A stretch of DNA of 43,038 bases from Nanobdellota archaeon. Lineage in GTDB: Archaea; Nanobdellota; Nanobdellia; Pacearchaeales; GW2011-AR1. Below are positions 16,153 to 39,115 of this stretch, in pieces. The first letter of the stretch is position 1. Every line of letters begins with the position of its first letter. The notes under the pieces are model-generated. The model had not been told where the DNA came from. It worked only from the letters and a program-made list of their open reading frames with translations, and did not search any database. The stretch covers positions 1 to 43,038 of the forward strand of contig JBBTAK010000011.1 of assembly GCA_038044245.1 (NCBI GenBank), given 5' to 3'. Made by a program: the position numbers and the translations under genes.

Positions 16153-16422
16153 TCACCTTTTTGTTTTTTCATACCTTATCCAAACGGCTGCAGTTGGCTT
16201 TGACTTTCTCTTCAATCTTCCTAAAACCGCTTTTCTAAGGGTATGGGATCTTACCACTTTATTTTTATATAATCTTATTATCGGCTCAGCAACTTCCTTC
16301 AATAGAGTCTTTATCTTTTTCTCCGAGAGATGTGCTCCCTTTGCTGATTTTTTTACAGACCTTTTTATTTTGTTTGCATTGAAGGCCTATTTTTTCCCAC
16401 TCTTTTTTATTACATAACCCAT
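16153..16422 (-). pseudogene. Small basic ORF interrupted by an in-frame TAG after codon 11
   Basis: Minus strand reads ATG-GYVIKKSGKK-TAG(16387-16389)-AFNANKIKRSVKKSAKGAHLSEKKIKTLLKEVAEPIIRLYKNKVVRSHTLRKAVLGRLKRKSKPTAAVWIRYEKTKR-TGA, all in one frame. A strong TATA box lies upstream. Confidence 0.4.
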
Positions 16423-16443
16423 ATTTTTAAAGAAAGCTCTTTT

Positions 16444-16455
16444 AGTATATAAATT
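16444..16455 (-). promoter_or_regulatory. TATA box upstream of the interrupted ORF
   Basis: Minus strand reads AAATTTATATAC, 22-33 nt upstream of the ATG at 16422. Confidence 0.35.
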
Positions 16456-16481
16456 TGCTTGTTAAAATAAATGAACTAAAA

Positions 16482-16493
16482 ATGGCCCCGATG
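16482..16493. repeat. 12-bp direct repeat of the tRNA-Lys 3' end (att-like)
   Basis: atggccccgatg is identical to 17165-17176, which is the last 11 nt of tRNA-Lys plus 1 flanking nt. Same orientation. Confidence 0.6.
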
Positions 16494-16536
16494 ACCTTTA
16501 AACAGAAGTGTTAAGGTTTCTTATAATTATGGCTTT

Positions 16537-16557
16537 AAACTCAAGGATTTTGAGTTT
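16537..16557 (-). terminator. Hairpin downstream of mazF
   Basis: aaactcaa-ggatt-ttgagttt forms an 8-bp perfect stem. It lies 32 nt beyond the mazF stop. Confidence 0.25.
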
Positions 16558-16588
16558 TAGACTCTAATCAAAAATAGGCAAAGCTTAG

Positions 16589-16921
16589 TTAATCTCTCAA
16601 AAAAGAGATTATTCTGTCTATAATCTCTTTAAATTTTTCAGGTTTTAAGGAGCCAGCTTTATATTTTATAATAGACCTTTCAATAGAAAAAAATTTATCT
16701 AATCTAAGGTAACTATCTATTTTTAATCCGCCCTCCTTGAAATCCTTTTTATTAATTTGAACTTCAAGAGAAGACTCTTGTGATTTTCCTGTTATTTGGC
16801 TAACTATTGCGTCTCCGCCCTTTGGAATCTTAACAATCAGAGCCGGTCTTCTTTTAACCTGTAGTAAGTTAGAGAAAGGAAAATCAAGAACCACAACATC
16901 TCCCCTCACAAATCTTTCCAT
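16589..16921 (-). CDS. mazF: MazF/PemK-family toxin (endoribonuclease)
   Basis: RGDVVVLDFPFSNLLQVKRRPALIV... is the classic PemK N-terminal signature. 110 aa. Overlaps the antitoxin gene by 16 nt. Confidence 0.85.
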   Translation of the reverse strand: MERFVRGDVVVLDFPFSNLLQVKRRPALIVKIPKGGDAIVSQITGKSQESSLEVQINKKDFKEGGLKIDSYLRLDKFFSIERSIIKYKAGSLKPEKFKEIIDRIISFLRD

Positions 16922-17124
16922 GCTTCATCTTCCTCTTTATTCAGCCATGTTTTTGCCAAAGATTTCTCAGACCAAAGAGCTGTTTCTGGGATAGATTTTT
17001 TTAGAATTATTTCATCATCTTTTCTGATTATAATAAGCTTATCTCCCTCATTGATTCCTTTGCGCATATCTAATGGTATTACTACCTGCCCTCTTGAACT
17101 CATTTTAGTTGTATCAATTATCAT
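16906..17124 (-). CDS. mazE: AbrB/MazE/SpoVT-family antitoxin
   Basis: SSRGQVVIPLDMRKGINEGDKLIII is a swapped-hairpin AbrB-like domain. 72 aa. Lies upstream of, and overlaps, mazF. Confidence 0.8.
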   Translation of the reverse strand: MIIDTTKMSSRGQVVIPLDMRKGINEGDKLIIIRKDDEIILKKSIPETALWSEKSLAKTWLNKEEDEAWKDL

Positions 17125-17165
17125 AAATAAGATTAATCTTACTTCTATTTAAATGTTTCGCTGGA

Positions 17166-17353
17166 TGGCCCCGATGGGATTTGAACCCACGACACCTGGA
17201 TCTCTCTGTTTTCCTCCTTTCTAAAAGGAGAGGTAGTGTGAGCGATTTTGTTTGACAAAATCCCACTAATCCGCGAACAAAGTCGCGAATTAAGGAGAAC
17301 CTTGGTTCTCCCACATAAGAGTCCAGTGCTCTACCAGGCTGAGCTACGGAGCC
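17166..17353 (-). tRNA. tRNA-Lys (CUU) with a 114-nt intron at 37/38
   Basis: 5' exon 17353-17316: GGCUCCGUAGCUCAGCCUGGUAGAGCACUGGACUCUUA. 3' exon 17201-17166: AUCCAGGUGUCGUGGGUUCAAAUCCCAUCGGGGCCA. Full cloverleaf with a 7-bp acceptor stem and GUUCAAAUC T-loop. Intron 17202-17315. No encoded CCA. Confidence 0.9.
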
Positions 17354-17411: not shown

Positions 17412-17425
17412 TGAGCTACGGAGCC
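17412..17425. repeat. 14-bp direct repeat of tRNA-Lys positions 1-14
   Basis: tgagctacggagcc is identical to 17340-17353. It lies 58 nt upstream of the tRNA in the same orientation. Confidence 0.6.
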
Positions 17426-17494
17426 AATAACCAAACAATCTACAAGAAGTTTAAAAATATTCGGTTTTTGTTCTCTTTTAAGGGAATTTTTAAA

Positions 17495-18061
17495 TTACAC
17501 GGAAACAAATTTTATTGTTGCGCCTGCCATCTTCCTGTGGAAATCGAGATCAGGGCCAACATTCTTTGTTTTAAAAATTACCAAATCCAAGCCTTCCCAG
17601 AAAAGGAACCAGCCTGCAGGCTCAAGAAGGATGGTAAAAAAACTTGTTATAAGACTTTCATTTTTGAACTTGAAGAAGATATAAGTGGCTACAAACATTA
17701 AGACAATTCCCAGAGCAGTGAAAGAAAGCCCTGTTTTTATTGTCTTCTTTTTATCCTTCTCCAGAATAGCAAGGTGCTTTCTGAAGTATTTCTTTAATCT
17801 GTCCTCTATCCTTGCCTCTTCCTTTATGTTTCTCTTTTCTTTTGGAATCATAAAGATAAAGTCTATTTTTTCTTCCTTGACAGCACATGCTCTTTTTGCC
17901 TCAGAAAGGAAGTCATCAGAAAATCCTTTCAAGGGCACAGGTCTTGGGTCAAAATCAGAGAAAATGTCTTCATATCTATTTATTGCAAATCTTACCTCAG
18001 AATTTTCCCAAGAGGCCATGTCTTCTTTCTCTTTTTTCATTAAACATCCAAGCCAAGACAA
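17495..18061 (-). CDS. Hypothetical protein, soluble N-domain + two C-terminal TM helices
   Basis: 188 aa. TM helices GLSFTALGIVLMFVATYIFF and FFTILLEPAGWFLFWEGLDLVIF. No family recognised. Confidence 0.55.
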   Translation of the reverse strand: MSWLGCLMKKEKEDMASWENSEVRFAINRYEDIFSDFDPRPVPLKGFSDDFLSEAKRACAVKEEKIDFIFMIPKEKRNIKEEARIEDRLKKYFRKHLAILEKDKKKTIKTGLSFTALGIVLMFVATYIFFKFKNESLITSFFTILLEPAGWFLFWEGLDLVIFKTKNVGPDLDFHRKMAGATIKFVSV

Positions 18062-18088
18062 TTTAAAATCCTATCTGTAGCCTGCTTT

Positions 18089-19006
18089 TTATTTAGAATT
18101 AATAAAATGTTTCATTGCAGGAAGAACTCTGCTAAACAGGTATTCGACACCTTGTCTAGGCGTCATTTCTGTAATATTATCACTAGGCTTTACTTCTCCA
18201 AAACCACTTAAAGTTTGCAAAATTGGGTGATATCCAGAGTGCGTTGTTTCGAAAACCTTAAACAACTCTCCAATAGCCTTATCTTTTTTCTCTTCTTGCC
18301 CAAAAGCATTAAGACCTTGAGAGAAAGGAATTGTGCTTTTTCTCTTGGAAAGTTCAACCATTTTTGGATAATACTCGCCCTTTGTTAATCTCTGCCAGGG
18401 GGTTCTTGTTTCTTGATTCATACATCCGTCTGTGTATGGATTATCAAATTGCCAAATTCCTTTTTTATTTTTTAGCCACCTAAGAGGGAAGCTAATTTCT
18501 TCAGATAAACACTCCTTTTCTGTAACCTCTTGAACAGCAGGAACAGGAAGAAAATCTCTGAAAGCATATGAGCCTATATGCAATCTTCCAAAATTTGAAA
18601 ATTTCCAACCTCTTCTGTCAACTTTTGATGCAGGACCAAAAGATATTCTTGCAACAAGCCCCCTGTCTTTTCCATGCAAATATCTTTTAGAACAATATCC
18701 TAAGTCATCACTATGCACGTCTCTTACATATAAAACTGCCCCAATATCATCATGTCCAGCCTTAGAAGTCCACATGAATGCAGGAATTTTAGTATCAAGA
18801 ACTCGAACCCCTCTTTTAATGGCTTGCTCAACAAGAGAAGGTAAACCGGAAACATTTATTCTTGCAAATTGCCAAAAACCTAATAGACTATCGGGAGCAA
18901 GCTGTGCAAATCTCTCAGAAGATGGCTCATGTGCAAAGCCCATCTCGTTATGCATATCCTCTTTTAATACTGCATGACTATCTATTGGCGCAACTGCAAT
19001 TTCCAT
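18089..19006 (-). CDS. Hypothetical soluble protein, Trp/His-rich, unknown family
   Basis: 305-aa ORF with no TM segment. Composition is like the core genes. It lies 27 nt upstream of the 188-aa membrane protein gene. I recognise no motif. Confidence 0.6.
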   Translation of the reverse strand: MEIAVAPIDSHAVLKEDMHNEMGFAHEPSSERFAQLAPDSLLGFWQFARINVSGLPSLVEQAIKRGVRVLDTKIPAFMWTSKAGHDDIGAVLYVRDVHSDDLGYCSKRYLHGKDRGLVARISFGPASKVDRRGWKFSNFGRLHIGSYAFRDFLPVPAVQEVTEKECLSEEISFPLRWLKNKKGIWQFDNPYTDGCMNQETRTPWQRLTKGEYYPKMVELSKRKSTIPFSQGLNAFGQEEKKDKAIGELFKVFETTHSGYHPILQTLSGFGEVKPSDNITEMTPRQGVEYLFSRVLPAMKHFINSK

Positions 19007-19087
19007 TATCTTTTACTAACTTGTTTACTTTTTAAATAAACTTATATTTTGATATAACTATTGAGTTGTCTGAGAAGAAATATTTTT

Positions 19088-38830: not shown

Positions 38831-38870
38831 CTGCAGTTAAGAAATCCCCCACTTATAAATTTTTAAGACA

Positions 38871-39041
38871 CGCCCCGACCGAGATTCGAACTCGGGTCAC
38901 GGCCGTTCCCTAAGGACAAAGACTGCATTGAGATGCTAGACCTATTCTCTCAACGAGATTGGGTCGTCTTTGTGTAAAACGCCGGCTCGAAAGCCGTCAT
39001 TTTTGAGAGGGCCGCATTCTTGGCCTCTGAACTATCGGGGC
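38871..39041 (-). tRNA. tRNA-Glu (CUC) with a 98-nt intron at 37/38
   Basis: 5' exon 39041-39004: GCCCCGAUAGUUCAGAGGCCAAGAAUGCGGCCCUCUCA. 3' exon 38905-38871: CGGCCGUGACCCGAGUUCGAAUCUCGGUCGGGGCG. 7-bp acceptor stem, all stems pair, GUUCGAAUC T-loop. Intron 38906-39003. Confidence 0.88.
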
Positions 39042-39115
39042 AGACATTCTTCAAACTTCTTTAATAGAGCGAGAAAAAGGTATTAAAAACTTGTTATTTG
39101 ATTGGGCTTTGAAAA

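What the first reader, a model, noticed from the sequence alone, without database searches (positions are those of the whole stretch)
16482..17176. mazEF toxin-antitoxin pair bracketed by a 12-bp direct repeat of the tRNA-Lys 3' end
atggccccgatg occurs at 17165-17176 (the last 11 nt of tRNA-Lys plus one flanking nt) and again at 16482-16493 in the same orientation. The 671 bp between the copies contain only the AbrB/MazE antitoxin, the MazF toxin and a terminator-like hairpin. A given 12-mer is expected far less than once by chance here: about 8.6e4 positions on both strands against 4^12 = 1.7e7 possibilities, and this one is GC-rich in AT-rich DNA. The layout is intact tRNA, then cargo, then a partial tRNA 3' copy. 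That is the classical footprint of site-specific integration into a tRNA gene, but no integrase is present. It is therefore either a minimal TA-only insertion or the stump of a larger element stabilised by its addiction module.
Basis: partly seen in the sequence, partly recalled or inferred. Interest (0 to 1): 0.6.

Follow-up and report, generated by a model that had tools for sequence, protein, structure and literature searches.

The report
Integrase-less toxin-antitoxin cassette behind tRNA-Lys
A 0.68-kb piece of DNA carrying only a mazEF toxin-antitoxin pair is inserted exactly at the end of a lysine tRNA gene of a tiny DPANN archaeon; it belongs to a genus-wide set of small cassettes without a recombinase gene that stack up behind tRNA genes, next to integrase-bearing elements that use the same sites.

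Summary
ATGGCCCCGATG occurs at 16482 and 17165. The 17165 copy is the 3' end of an intron-bearing tRNA-Lys(CTT). The 671 bp between the copies hold only AbrB-type mazE, mazF and hairpins.

It is a real insertion. A same-genus genome (G007) has the same synteny with the tRNA 42 nt from the ATP-cone gene, so its site is empty. In the window, the distal copy plus its T-run sits where the tRNA end sits in G007.

The pattern recurs:
- The second tRNA-Lys (TTT) of this genome carries an RHH-mazF cassette between 12-nt repeats, and relatives have that site empty.
- Orthologous mazEF cassettes in relatives sit behind tRNA-Glu or tRNA-Asp, each bracketed by that tRNA's own end.
- Some relatives carry cassette arrays that include ~400-aa tyrosine-integrase elements flanked by 11-12-nt cores of the same kind.
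- Lys-type distal copies share a conserved arm (CACTTCTG-N9-core) although their cargos differ.

Best reading: a cis-mobilizable-element-like (CIME-like) cassette made by site-specific recombination, with the integrase supplied in trans. None was found in this 83%-complete genome. It is undecided whether the minimal cassette moves as a unit or is a deletion stump.

The interrupted ORF is an ATP-cone gene, not a recombinase. Other agents of this scan noted the same phenomenon in other archaea.

The parts
17166..17353 (-). tRNA-Lys(CTT) gene with a 114-nt intron at the canonical position (about 17202-17315). Its 3' end is the target site (attL side).
   Evidence: ARAGORN with the intron option; sequence read directly. 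Default ARAGORN and Rfam miss it.
17165..17176 (-). Proximal core copy, CATCGGGGCCAT on the tRNA strand: tRNA positions 63-73 plus 1 nt. It is followed by cassette DNA (TCCAGCG...) instead of the usual T-run.
   Evidence: In most relatives the flank after tRNA-Lys is TTTT.
17125..17164 (-). Proximal end of the cassette with the mazEF promoter. The TATA box TTTAAATA lies at 17146-17153, about 25 nt before the ATG. The block TTTAAATAGAAGTAAGATTAATCTTATTT is conserved in seven orthologous cassettes.
16906..17124 (-). mazE antitoxin, 72 aa, with an AbrB/SpoVT-type N-terminal domain. Its C-terminal tail (..WLNKEEDEAWKDL) is homologous to the tail of the RHH antitoxin on contig C35.
   Evidence: Pfam PF04014, E 1e-8.
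16589..16921 (-). mazF/PemK-type endoribonuclease toxin, 110 aa. It overlaps mazE by 16 nt.
   Evidence: Pfam PF02452, E 1e-11. A profile of 11 orthologues matches solved MazF/EndoA structures at E 1e-10. R25-P26 and I43-T44 are invariant. Orthologues at 57-73% identity have open frames.
16522..16588 (-). Non-coding tail with a hairpin at about 16535-16559, a possible terminator.
   Evidence: fold; z = -1.66, so the statistical support is weak.
16494..16521 (-). Distal arm AGAAACCTTAACACTTCTGTTTAAAGGT. It is shared with other Lys-type cassettes that carry different cargo (motif CACTTCTG-N9-core). It is a degenerate copy of the tRNA T-loop region and can form a small hairpin.
16482..16493 (-). 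Distal core copy CATCGGGGCCAT (attR side). It is followed by TTTT (16478-16481), the displaced original flank of the tRNA.
   Evidence: It aligns in position with the tRNA end plus TTTT of the empty site in G007.
16153..16456 (-). Native downstream neighbour, outside the cassette: a small ATP-cone gene with its own promoter, interrupted by an in-frame TAG at codon 12.
   Evidence: Pfam PF03477, E 1.1e-10. An intact 89-aa orthologue lies 42 nt after tRNA-Lys(CTT) in G007.

Best explanation
The 683-bp unit (one core copy plus the 671-bp cargo) is a small integrated cassette with no integrase gene. It entered the 3' end of tRNA-Lys(CTT) by site-specific recombination between an att site on the cassette and the tRNA end. 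The cassette's att site consists of the arm ...CACTTCTG-N9- plus the core CATCGGGGCCA.

Recombination rebuilt an intact tRNA on the proximal side. It pushed the original tRNA end, with its oligo-T terminator, to the distal side.

The enzyme is inferred to be a tyrosine integrase of about 400 aa, of the family that in related genomes lies next to tRNA 3' ends. It would be supplied in trans by a co-resident or transient element, because none is present in the cassette or in the assembled genome.

The cargo is an apparently functional mazEF addiction or defence module with its own promoter. Such a module would favour retention of the cassette.

Shown here:
- the repeat;
- the empty site;
- recurrence at other tRNAs;
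- arrays that include integrase-bearing elements;
- the shared arm.

Inferred:
- the recombinase;
- trans-mobilisation;
- present-day mobility;
- toxin activity.
For: 1. Exact 12-nt direct repeat at the tRNA 3' end; chance expectation 0.06.

2. Empty site. G007 has SigPep-TFS-tRNA-Lys(CTT)-42 nt-ATP-cone-...-wHTH-phosphoesterase, the same synteny as the window but without the cassette. The distal core plus TTTT of the window occupies the position of the tRNA end plus TTTT of G007.

3. Second case in the same genome. On contig C35, tRNA-Lys(TTT) is followed by RHH-mazF between 12-nt repeats. Relatives G019 and G048 have that site empty, with rpoH starting about 150-190 nt after the tRNA.

4. 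G006:C2 has tRNA-Lys(TTT) | relBE-like TA | core | RHH-mazF | core. The left junction of the RHH-mazF cassette is the same as in G000, so a TA-only cassette was gained or lost precisely at the core boundaries.

5. Orthologous AbrB-mazEF cassettes lie behind other tRNAs: tRNA-Glu(TTC) 15 nt, tRNA-Glu(CTC) 12 nt, tRNA-Asp 13 nt. Each is bracketed by that tRNA's own end.

6. Integrase elements use cores of the same kind:
- G006:C18 has a 10.9-kb integrase plus type I restriction-modification (R-M) element between 11-nt cores, with 19-nt perfect inverted repeats. It lies in the same array as an orthologous mazEF cassette.
- G006:C24 has tRNA-Ser(GGA) | 6-kb primase-integrase element | 12-nt core | ParE-like cassette | core.
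- Seventeen homologues of the integrase, in as many genomes, sit 50-110 nt after the 3' end of a called tRNA gene; Glu, Thr, Asp, Ser, Gly and Leu tRNAs are among them.

7. Five of seven non-tRNA Lys-type core copies share the arm CACTT..N..core although their cargos differ. Nineteen nt are identical between G000:C11 and an unrelated cassette in G002:C2.

8. tRNA-end copies occur only downstream and in the same orientation: 5 versus 0 upstream and 0 inverted.
Against: - No integrase was found in the cassette, in the window or in the assembled genome. However, the assembly is only 83% complete.
- No integrase-bearing element was found at a tRNA-Lys gene in the genomes examined.
- Orthologous cassettes are only 57-78% identical in protein, so nothing shows recent movement.
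- The same mazEF cassette carries a tRNA-Glu core in some genomes and a tRNA-Lys core here. A single integrase specificity does not explain this; it needs either att switching or several integrases.
- The distal 40 nt may be partly the tail of an older RHH-mazF cassette. That would point to decay and fusion inside an array rather than to a clean unit.
- In G006:C18 the integrase lies at the opposite end, and in the opposite orientation, relative to the core compared with its homologues.
Confidence: 0.72

Rival explanations
1. Stump of a larger integrated element. A full-size integrase-bearing plasmid or virus integrated at tRNA-Lys, and an internal deletion removed everything except the addictive mazEF pair and both att ends. 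The cassette itself never moved as a unit.
For: - Arrays in relatives mix large integrase elements with small cassettes.
- The left junction of the orthologous mazEF cassettes is constant, while the right junctions differ: 16, 42, 52 and 95 nt after the stop codon. This is what independent deletions would give in elements that carried mazEF next to one att end.
- The distal 40 nt resemble the end of another cassette type.
- Cis-mobilizable elements (CIMEs) are defined as arising in this way (PMC5704250).
Against: - Many independent units are minimal. They hold a promoter plus two genes plus 20-90 nt, at several tRNAs and with four or more cargo types, and both cores are preserved each time.
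- In 17 of the loci carrying a homologue of this integrase, the int gene lies directly after a called tRNA gene. A toxin-antitoxin pair next to the tRNA would therefore need a deletion ending just at its promoter in every case.
- A TA-only cassette is precisely present or absent at the core boundaries when G000 and G006 are compared.
Confidence: 0.3
2. Target-site duplication by a transposase-like or casposase-like enzyme. The element inserted at a staggered cut in the tRNA end, and the 12-nt repeat is the duplicated target.
For: - The repeat always matches the host tRNA's own end, whichever tRNA is used.
- Casposons are known to target tRNA 3' ends and to make 14-15-bp duplications (background knowledge; also mentioned in PMC6563490).
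- A 12-of-13-nt inverted repeat (TTTAAATAGAAGT / ACTTCTGTTTAAA) lies just inside the two cores.
Against: - Repeat lengths vary from 9 to 24 nt, and the repeats extend with mismatches into the T-loop. This is unlike a fixed-length duplication.
- The left arm of the putative inverted repeat is the conserved TATA/BRE promoter of mazEF, and it is also present in orthologues without repeats.
- No transposase or Cas1 gene is in the unit.
- Bona fide tyrosine-integrase elements with repeats of the same kind exist in the same arrays.
Confidence: 0.05
3. No mobile element. The distal copy is a chance match, or a functional RNA-processing or terminator element that merely resembles the tRNA end, and mazEF is an ordinary chromosomal neighbour.
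For: - The repeat is short (12 nt).
- The distal arm can fold into a small hairpin followed by a T-run.
Against: - Chance expectation is 0.06.
- Copies are strictly downstream and in the same orientation.
- An empty site exists in G007.
- The pattern recurs at six or more tRNAs and in many genomes.
- The fold z-score is only -1.66.
Confidence: 0.03

Closest known systems
CIMEs (cis-mobilizable elements) and tandem accretion at tRNA att sites of ICEs/IMEs in Firmicutes (Pavlovic et al. 2004; Bellanger et al. 2011; reviewed in PMC5704250)
   Same: - Flanked by attL and attR copies of a tRNA 3' end.
- No integrase or transfer genes.
- Sits in tandem arrays with integrase-bearing elements that use the same site (G006:C18, G006:C24).
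   Different: - The host is archaeal (DPANN, Woesearchaeales/Pacearchaeota).
- The units are far smaller (0.65-0.7 kb, one TA operon).
- The cores are only 11-15 nt.
- Many different tRNAs are used.
- Derivation from a decayed larger element is not shown.
- No conjugative partner is known.
Archaeal integrated plasmids, viruses and cryptic integrated elements with tyrosine integrases (pNOB8/SNJ2-type, SSV-type; Thaumarchaeota survey PMC6563490)
   Same: - Integration into tRNA gene 3' ends.
- Direct repeats of the tRNA end.
- Reuse of the site, giving arrays.
   Different: - Those elements carry their integrase. The smallest reported cryptic element is 2.6 kb and has an integrase (PMC6563490).
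- This unit has none and is four times smaller.
Toxin-antitoxin cassettes of chromosomal integrons (for example Vibrio superintegrons; integrons reported in Archaea, bioRxiv 10.1101/2022.02.06.479319)
   Same: - Promoter-bearing TA pairs as single-operon cassettes.
- Stacked in arrays and separated by a repeated recombination site.
- The recombinase is encoded outside the cassette.
   Different: - The repeated site is a copy of a tRNA 3' end with a short arm, not an attC imperfect palindrome.
- There is no IntI/attI/Pc platform.
- The array is anchored on a tRNA gene.
IMEX elements (integrative mobile elements exploiting host Xer recombinases, for example CTX phage)
   Same: Integrating elements that carry no recombinase of their own and rely on an enzyme encoded elsewhere.
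   Different: - IMEX elements use the chromosomal dif site and XerCD.
- Here the site is a tRNA end, and a role for the XerA-like gene of the genus was not tested.

Membership tests
MazF/PemK type II toxin | Sequence membership in PF02452 and similarity to solved MazF structures | tested here: met
   Pfam E 1e-11, 45 bits against a cut-off of 23. A profile of 11 orthologues hits S. aureus MazF and B. subtilis EndoA structures at E 1e-10. The single sequence alone gave no PDB hit.
MazF/PemK type II toxin | Conserved catalytic Arg and Ser/Thr | tested here: met
   R25-P26 and I43-T44 are invariant in 11 sequences. They align with the RP and IT(G) motifs of S. aureus MazF. Assigning these residues as catalytic rests on published MazF work, not on a test here.
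MazF/PemK type II toxin | Upstream, overlapping antitoxin gene | tested here: met
   mazE (PF04014, E 1e-8) overlaps mazF by 16 nt.
MazF/PemK type II toxin | Sequence-specific RNase activity neutralised by the antitoxin | not testable with these tools
   Needs expression and cleavage assays.
Tyrosine-integrase integrative element at a tRNA gene | Direct repeats of the tRNA 3' end bracketing the insert, with an intact tRNA on one side | tested here: met
Tyrosine-integrase integrative element at a tRNA gene | Empty site in relatives at the same syntenic position | tested here: met
   G007:C8. For the sister cassette on C35, G019 and G048 are empty.
Tyrosine-integrase integrative element at a tRNA gene | Integrase gene inside the element | tested here: not met
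   Only mazE and mazF lie between the repeats. There is no PF00589 match in the genome and no homologue of the genus integrase.
Tyrosine-integrase integrative element at a tRNA gene | Excision to a circular form and a restored empty site | not testable with these tools
CIME (cis-mobilizable element) | attL and attR retained, integration and transfer genes absent | tested here: met
CIME (cis-mobilizable element) | Accretion with an integrase-bearing element at the same att site | tested here: inconclusive
   Accretion is seen for orthologous and analogous cassettes in G006:C18 and G006:C24. It is not seen in this genome.
CIME (cis-mobilizable element) | Origin by decay of a larger ICE/IME | tested here: inconclusive
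   Constant left junctions and variable right junctions fit a decay origin. The pervasive minimal units and the shared arm fit a unit origin.
Integron gene cassette | attC imperfect palindrome at the cassette end, and an IntI/attI platform | tested here: not met
   The repeated site is a copy of the tRNA end. The distal fold is weak (z = -1.66). No integrase was found next to the tRNA in this genome or in 30 related tRNA-Lys loci.
Transposon/casposon | Fixed-length target-site duplication plus terminal inverted repeats and a transposase or Cas1 | tested here: not met
   Repeat lengths are 9-24 nt. The only inverted repeat overlaps the conserved promoter. There is no such gene in the unit.

The most novel reading that the evidence does not exclude
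DPANN archaea (and, according to other notes of this scan, other archaea too) may have a tRNA-anchored system that works like an integron. In it, single-operon cassettes, mostly toxin-antitoxin pairs, each carry a short att site made of a conserved arm plus a tRNA-end core. Tyrosine integrases encoded on other, larger elements would capture, stack and exchange these cassettes behind tRNA genes in trans. Bare TA modules would then be mobile units in their own right. This would explain how they spread in genomes of 0.5 Mb that have almost no other mobile DNA.
Probability: 0.4. Interest if true: 0.75.

Novelty: new variant of a known kind. Interest (0 to 1): 0.55.

Why it matters
How type II toxin-antitoxin modules spread as bare two-gene units is poorly explained. 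Here there is a precise occupied-versus-empty site, a recurring bracket made from the tRNA's own end, and a short arm shared by cassettes with unrelated cargo. In relatives, integrase-bearing elements sit in the same arrays.

Together these make trans-mobilisation a directly testable hypothesis: a defined 30-40-nt site, plus candidate integrases from the same genus.

The finding also shows that tRNA 3' flanks are the main places of gene flux in these extremely reduced DPANN genomes.

It also has a practical consequence for annotation. Intron-bearing tRNAs are missed by default tools, so the att context is invisible in standard annotation.

Tried and rejected
Default ARAGORN and Rfam did not find the tRNA; the intron option was needed.

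**ORF 16153-16422 as a recombinase.** Rejected. It is an ATP-cone gene.

**A repeat of tRNA-Thr near 43139 on the contig.** Rejected as a scaffold artefact across an N-run.

**The 305-aa ORF upstream of the tRNA as a synteny anchor.** It has no homologue in 41 genus genomes, so other anchors were used.

**The 13-nt inverted repeat around the core as transposon ends.** Rejected. Its left arm is the conserved mazEF TATA/BRE promoter, which is also present in orthologues without repeats.

**Search for an integrase at a tRNA-Lys end.**
- None in 30 genus tRNA-Lys loci.
- None among the roughly 20 loci carrying a homologue of the integrase.
- A pattern search for the integrase promoter directly after the Lys core, in 401 family genomes, gave nothing above the control.

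**MazF against solved structures.** The single sequence found nothing. The profile was needed.

**Viral contigs.** They gave only two distant mazF relatives and no informative context.

**A functional link between MazF and tRNA-Lys** (as for the published M. tuberculosis MazF-mt9, which cleaves tRNA-Lys; recalled from memory). Considered but not supported, because the same cassette sits behind Glu and Asp tRNAs.
Full report
**1. Observation**

The 12-mer ATGGCCCCGATG occurs at 16482-16493 and 17165-17176, both on the + strand. With up to one mismatch allowed, dinucleotide-preserving shuffles expect 0.06 matches, and none of 100 shuffles gave two.

The copy at 17165 is the reverse complement of CATCGGGGCCA+T. 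That is positions 63-73 of a tRNA-Lys(CTT) gene on the minus strand (17353->17166), plus one flanking base.

Default ARAGORN and Rfam do not see this tRNA, because it has a 114-nt intron at the canonical position. ARAGORN with the intron option calls it, together with 29 other tRNAs in the genome, many of them with introns.

The similarity between the two copies extends with mismatches to 18 of 22 nt, into the T-loop.

The 671 bp between the copies contain an AbrB-type mazE (PF04014, E 1e-8) and a mazF/PemK gene (PF02452, E 1e-11). The two genes overlap by 16 nt. They are followed by about 95 nt of non-coding DNA that can form two hairpins; its fold z-score is only -1.66.

**2. Organism**

The window is contig C11 of a 536-kb, 40-contig assembly that is 83% complete. 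It carries archaeal genes (TFS, Cdc48, topoisomerase). Records with the closest relatives of the mazF gene are titled Nanoarchaeota, Woesearchaeota or Pacearchaeota MAGs. This is a DPANN archaeon.

**3. It is an insertion**

A same-genus genome, G007, has the same gene order: signal peptidase, TFS, tRNA-Lys(CTT), ATP-cone gene..., wHTH gene, phosphoesterase. There the ATP-cone gene starts 42 nt after the tRNA.

In the window, the mazEF unit lies exactly between the tRNA 3' end and the promoter of that ATP-cone gene.

The distal core is followed by TTTT, as the tRNA end is in G007 and in most relatives. The proximal copy, which forms the tRNA's actual 3' end, is followed by TCCAGCG.... So the distal copy carries the original flank and the proximal flank is foreign, as expected for attR and attL.

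The "interrupted ORF" 16153-16422 is this ATP-cone gene (PF03477, E 1.1e-10) with an in-frame TAG. It is not a recombinase.

**4. The pattern recurs in this genome**

I scanned all 30 tRNAs for nearby copies of their ends.

- The third genomic copy of the 12-mer is the end of tRNA-Lys(TTT) on contig C35. That tRNA is followed by an RHH antitoxin plus a second MazF (PF01402 and PF02452), bracketed by the 12-nt repeat TCGGGGCCATTT, 648 bp apart.
- tRNA-Ser(GGA) on C39 has a 13-14-nt repeat around a HEPN-domain ORF.
- tRNA-Asp on C39 has a 10-11-nt repeat around two genes.

With 11-mers and up to 1 mismatch within 3 kb, there are 5 hits downstream on the same strand. There are 0 upstream and 0 in inverted orientation.

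For the C35 cassette, relatives G019 and G048 have the site empty, with rpoH starting about 150-190 nt after the tRNA. Other relatives carry other small cargos there.

**5. The pattern recurs in relatives**

MazF orthologues at 57-78% identity occur in same-genus and other Nanoarchaeota genomes. All share a conserved promoter and 5' region, TTTAAATAGAAGTAAGATTAATCTTATTT-ATG. Where repeats are present, the proximal repeat ends 11-20 nt upstream of that TATA box.

The repeat is each time the end of the tRNA that is actually adjacent:

| Locus / genome | tRNA end | Repeat |
|---|---|---|
| G002 | tRNA-Glu(TTC) | 15 nt |
| L117 | tRNA-Glu(CTC) | 12 nt |
| L128 | tRNA-Asp(GTC) | 13 nt |
| G001, G006, G008 | Glu-type cores | inside arrays |

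Two orthologues (G010, G020) have no repeat.

In G006:C2 the layout is tRNA-Lys(TTT) | relBE-like pair | core | RHH-mazF | core. The RHH-mazF cassette has the same left junction as in G000. So a TA-only cassette differs in presence exactly at the core boundaries.

relBE-like cassettes that are about 80% identical at the DNA level, from promoter to stop codon only, lie behind tRNA-Lys(CTT) in G002 and behind tRNA-Lys(TTT) in G003 and G006.

**6. Recombinase**

G000 has no PF00589 match and no homologue of the genus integrase. Relatives do have integrases.

- **G006:C18.** It carries five same-orientation Glu-type cores. Between them lie a 284-aa ORF, the orthologous mazEF plus one ORF, two small ORFs, and a 10.9-kb element. 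That element holds a 397-aa tyrosine integrase (PF00589, E 6e-20) and a type I restriction-modification system. It is flanked by 11-nt cores, with perfect 19-nt inverted repeats just inside them.
- **G006:C24.** The layout is tRNA-Ser(GGA) | 6-kb primase-integrase element | 12-nt core | 0.69-kb ParE-like cassette | core. The core is the same as around the HEPN cassette in G000.
- **Homologues.** Seventeen homologues of the G006 integrase (roughly 40-59% identical), in as many family genomes, sit 50-110 nt after the 3' end of a called tRNA gene. These include Glu, Thr, Asp, Ser, Gly and Leu tRNAs, and the integrase reads in the same direction as the tRNA.

So a tRNA-3'-end-specific integrase family with many specificities circulates in this lineage, and its bona fide elements have cores of the same length as the repeat in the window. 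None was found at a tRNA-Lys gene.

**7. A shared arm**

The distal 40 nt of the window's cassette read AGAAACCTTAACACTTCTGTTTAAAGGT-CATCGGGGCC. They are homologous to the distal ends of the RHH-mazF cassettes of G000:C35 and G006:C2. In G006:C2 the T-loop part is still TTCAAATCCCA.

Among all seven non-tRNA copies of TCGGGGCCA in the fetched loci, five have CACTT(C/T).. at a fixed 9-10 nt before the core. Their cargos nevertheless differ: AbrB-mazEF, RHH-mazF, relBE-like, and a wHTH gene plus an 87-aa ORF. The last of these, in G002:C2, is identical to the window's arm over 19 nt.

A conserved short site abutting unrelated cargos is what a recombination site carried by each cassette would look like. 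It can also be read as the retained P arm of decayed elements. In C35 part of it is coding (..QKP*), so a fusion with the tail of an older cassette cannot be excluded.

**8. Cargo**

The MazF profile matches solved MazF, EndoA and PemK structures at E 1e-10. R25-P26 and I43-T44 are invariant across 11 sequences, and the frames are open in all orthologues.

The AbrB and RHH antitoxins share a homologous C-terminal tail, the usual modular design. The pair therefore looks functional. Activity was not tested.

**9. Interpretation**

Site-specific integration at the tRNA end is well supported, by the repeat, the empty site, the displaced flank, the recurrence, the integrase elements in the same arrays and the shared arm.

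Target-site duplication is disfavoured. Repeat lengths range from 9 to 24 nt, and the one inverted repeat overlaps the conserved promoter. Chance is excluded.

What remains open is whether the 0.68-kb unit is itself the mobile entity, moved in trans, or a deletion stump.

- For a mobile unit: the many minimal cassettes with intact cores, four or more cargo types with one arm, and precise presence or absence of a TA-only cassette.
- For a stump: the constant left and variable right junctions of the mazEF orthologues, and the composite distal end.

The closest described concept is the CIME with tandem accretion (PMC5704250). Archaeal surveys describe arrays of integrase-bearing elements at tRNA genes, and the smallest they list is a 2.6-kb element that has an integrase (PMC6563490). 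Two full-text searches found no description of integrase-less TA cassettes arrayed behind archaeal tRNA genes.

Other agents of this scan have reported the same building plan in other archaea. Those are unchecked AI notes. I reached the reading from this genome's own data and list them only as agreeing.

**10. Limits**

- All relatives are MAGs or single-cell genomes that are 66-100% complete, so absences are "not found".
- tRNA calls depend on ARAGORN's intron mode.
- Kin genomes are not independent samples.

Noticed in passing
window 17340-17353 and 17412-17425: The first 14 nt of tRNA-Lys(CTT) are repeated 72 nt upstream. The same arrangement, with a homologous spacer, is present in G002. 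Other genus members (G020, G044, G003, G057) have an upstream copy of the tRNA-Lys 5' end 61-118 nt before the gene; in G020 it runs on to about 25 nt. tRNA-Glu(TTC) on contig C24 likewise has a 14-nt copy of its 5' end 53 nt upstream. I have no explanation for this. Loci with such a copy lack the usual TATA box directly before the tRNA.
   Followed up: partly
window 16153-16422 (-): A small ATP-cone gene has an in-frame TAG at codon 12. An intact 89-aa orthologue (52% identity) exists in G007 at the same position. The gene is rare in the genus, found in 2 of 41 other genomes. It is probably a recent pseudogene.
   Followed up: partly
window 17426-19087: Compared with G007, where TFS ends 46 nt before the tRNA, G000 has about 1.7 kb extra between TFS and tRNA-Lys. 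The extra DNA holds a 305-aa ORF with no homologue in 41 genus genomes, and a 188-aa two-TM ORF. Homologues of the 188-aa ORF lie downstream of tRNA-Lys(CTT), on the opposite strand, in G002, G006 and G023. Both flanks of this tRNA are therefore variable.
   Followed up: partly
G000 contig C39: 3020-3880 and 9072-10600 (outside the window): tRNA-Ser(GGA) has a 13-14-nt 3'-end repeat around a 223-aa HEPN-domain ORF. tRNA-Asp has a 10-11-nt repeat around a 141-aa ORF and a 311-aa wHTH ORF. tRNA-Ala(TGC) on C17 has a near-copy of its end 1 kb downstream.
   Followed up: partly
window 38870-39042 (-): tRNA-Glu(CTC) with a 98-nt intron is missed by default ARAGORN and by Rfam at the gathering threshold. 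Several tRNAs of this genome have introns of 36-114 nt.
   Followed up: no
contig C11 just beyond the window end (43039 onward): An N-run is followed by a second copy of 55 nt of tRNA-Thr(GGT). This is a scaffolding artefact, not a biological repeat.
   Followed up: yes
L026/L064 (G006:C18 37404-48317): A 10.9-kb integrated element carries a 397-aa tyrosine integrase and a type I restriction-modification system. It is flanked by 11-nt cores and has perfect 19-nt inverted repeats just inside them. Its integrase lies at the opposite end, and in the opposite orientation, relative to the core compared with its homologues.
   Followed up: partly
L131, L166, L171, L177 (other phyla): Distant mazEF relatives in other archaea and in bacteria are bracketed by long direct repeats (98, 34, 91 and 21 nt) that do not coincide with the 3' end of any tRNA gene ARAGORN called in the locus. 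They may be integron or other cassette systems. I did not examine them.
   Followed up: no
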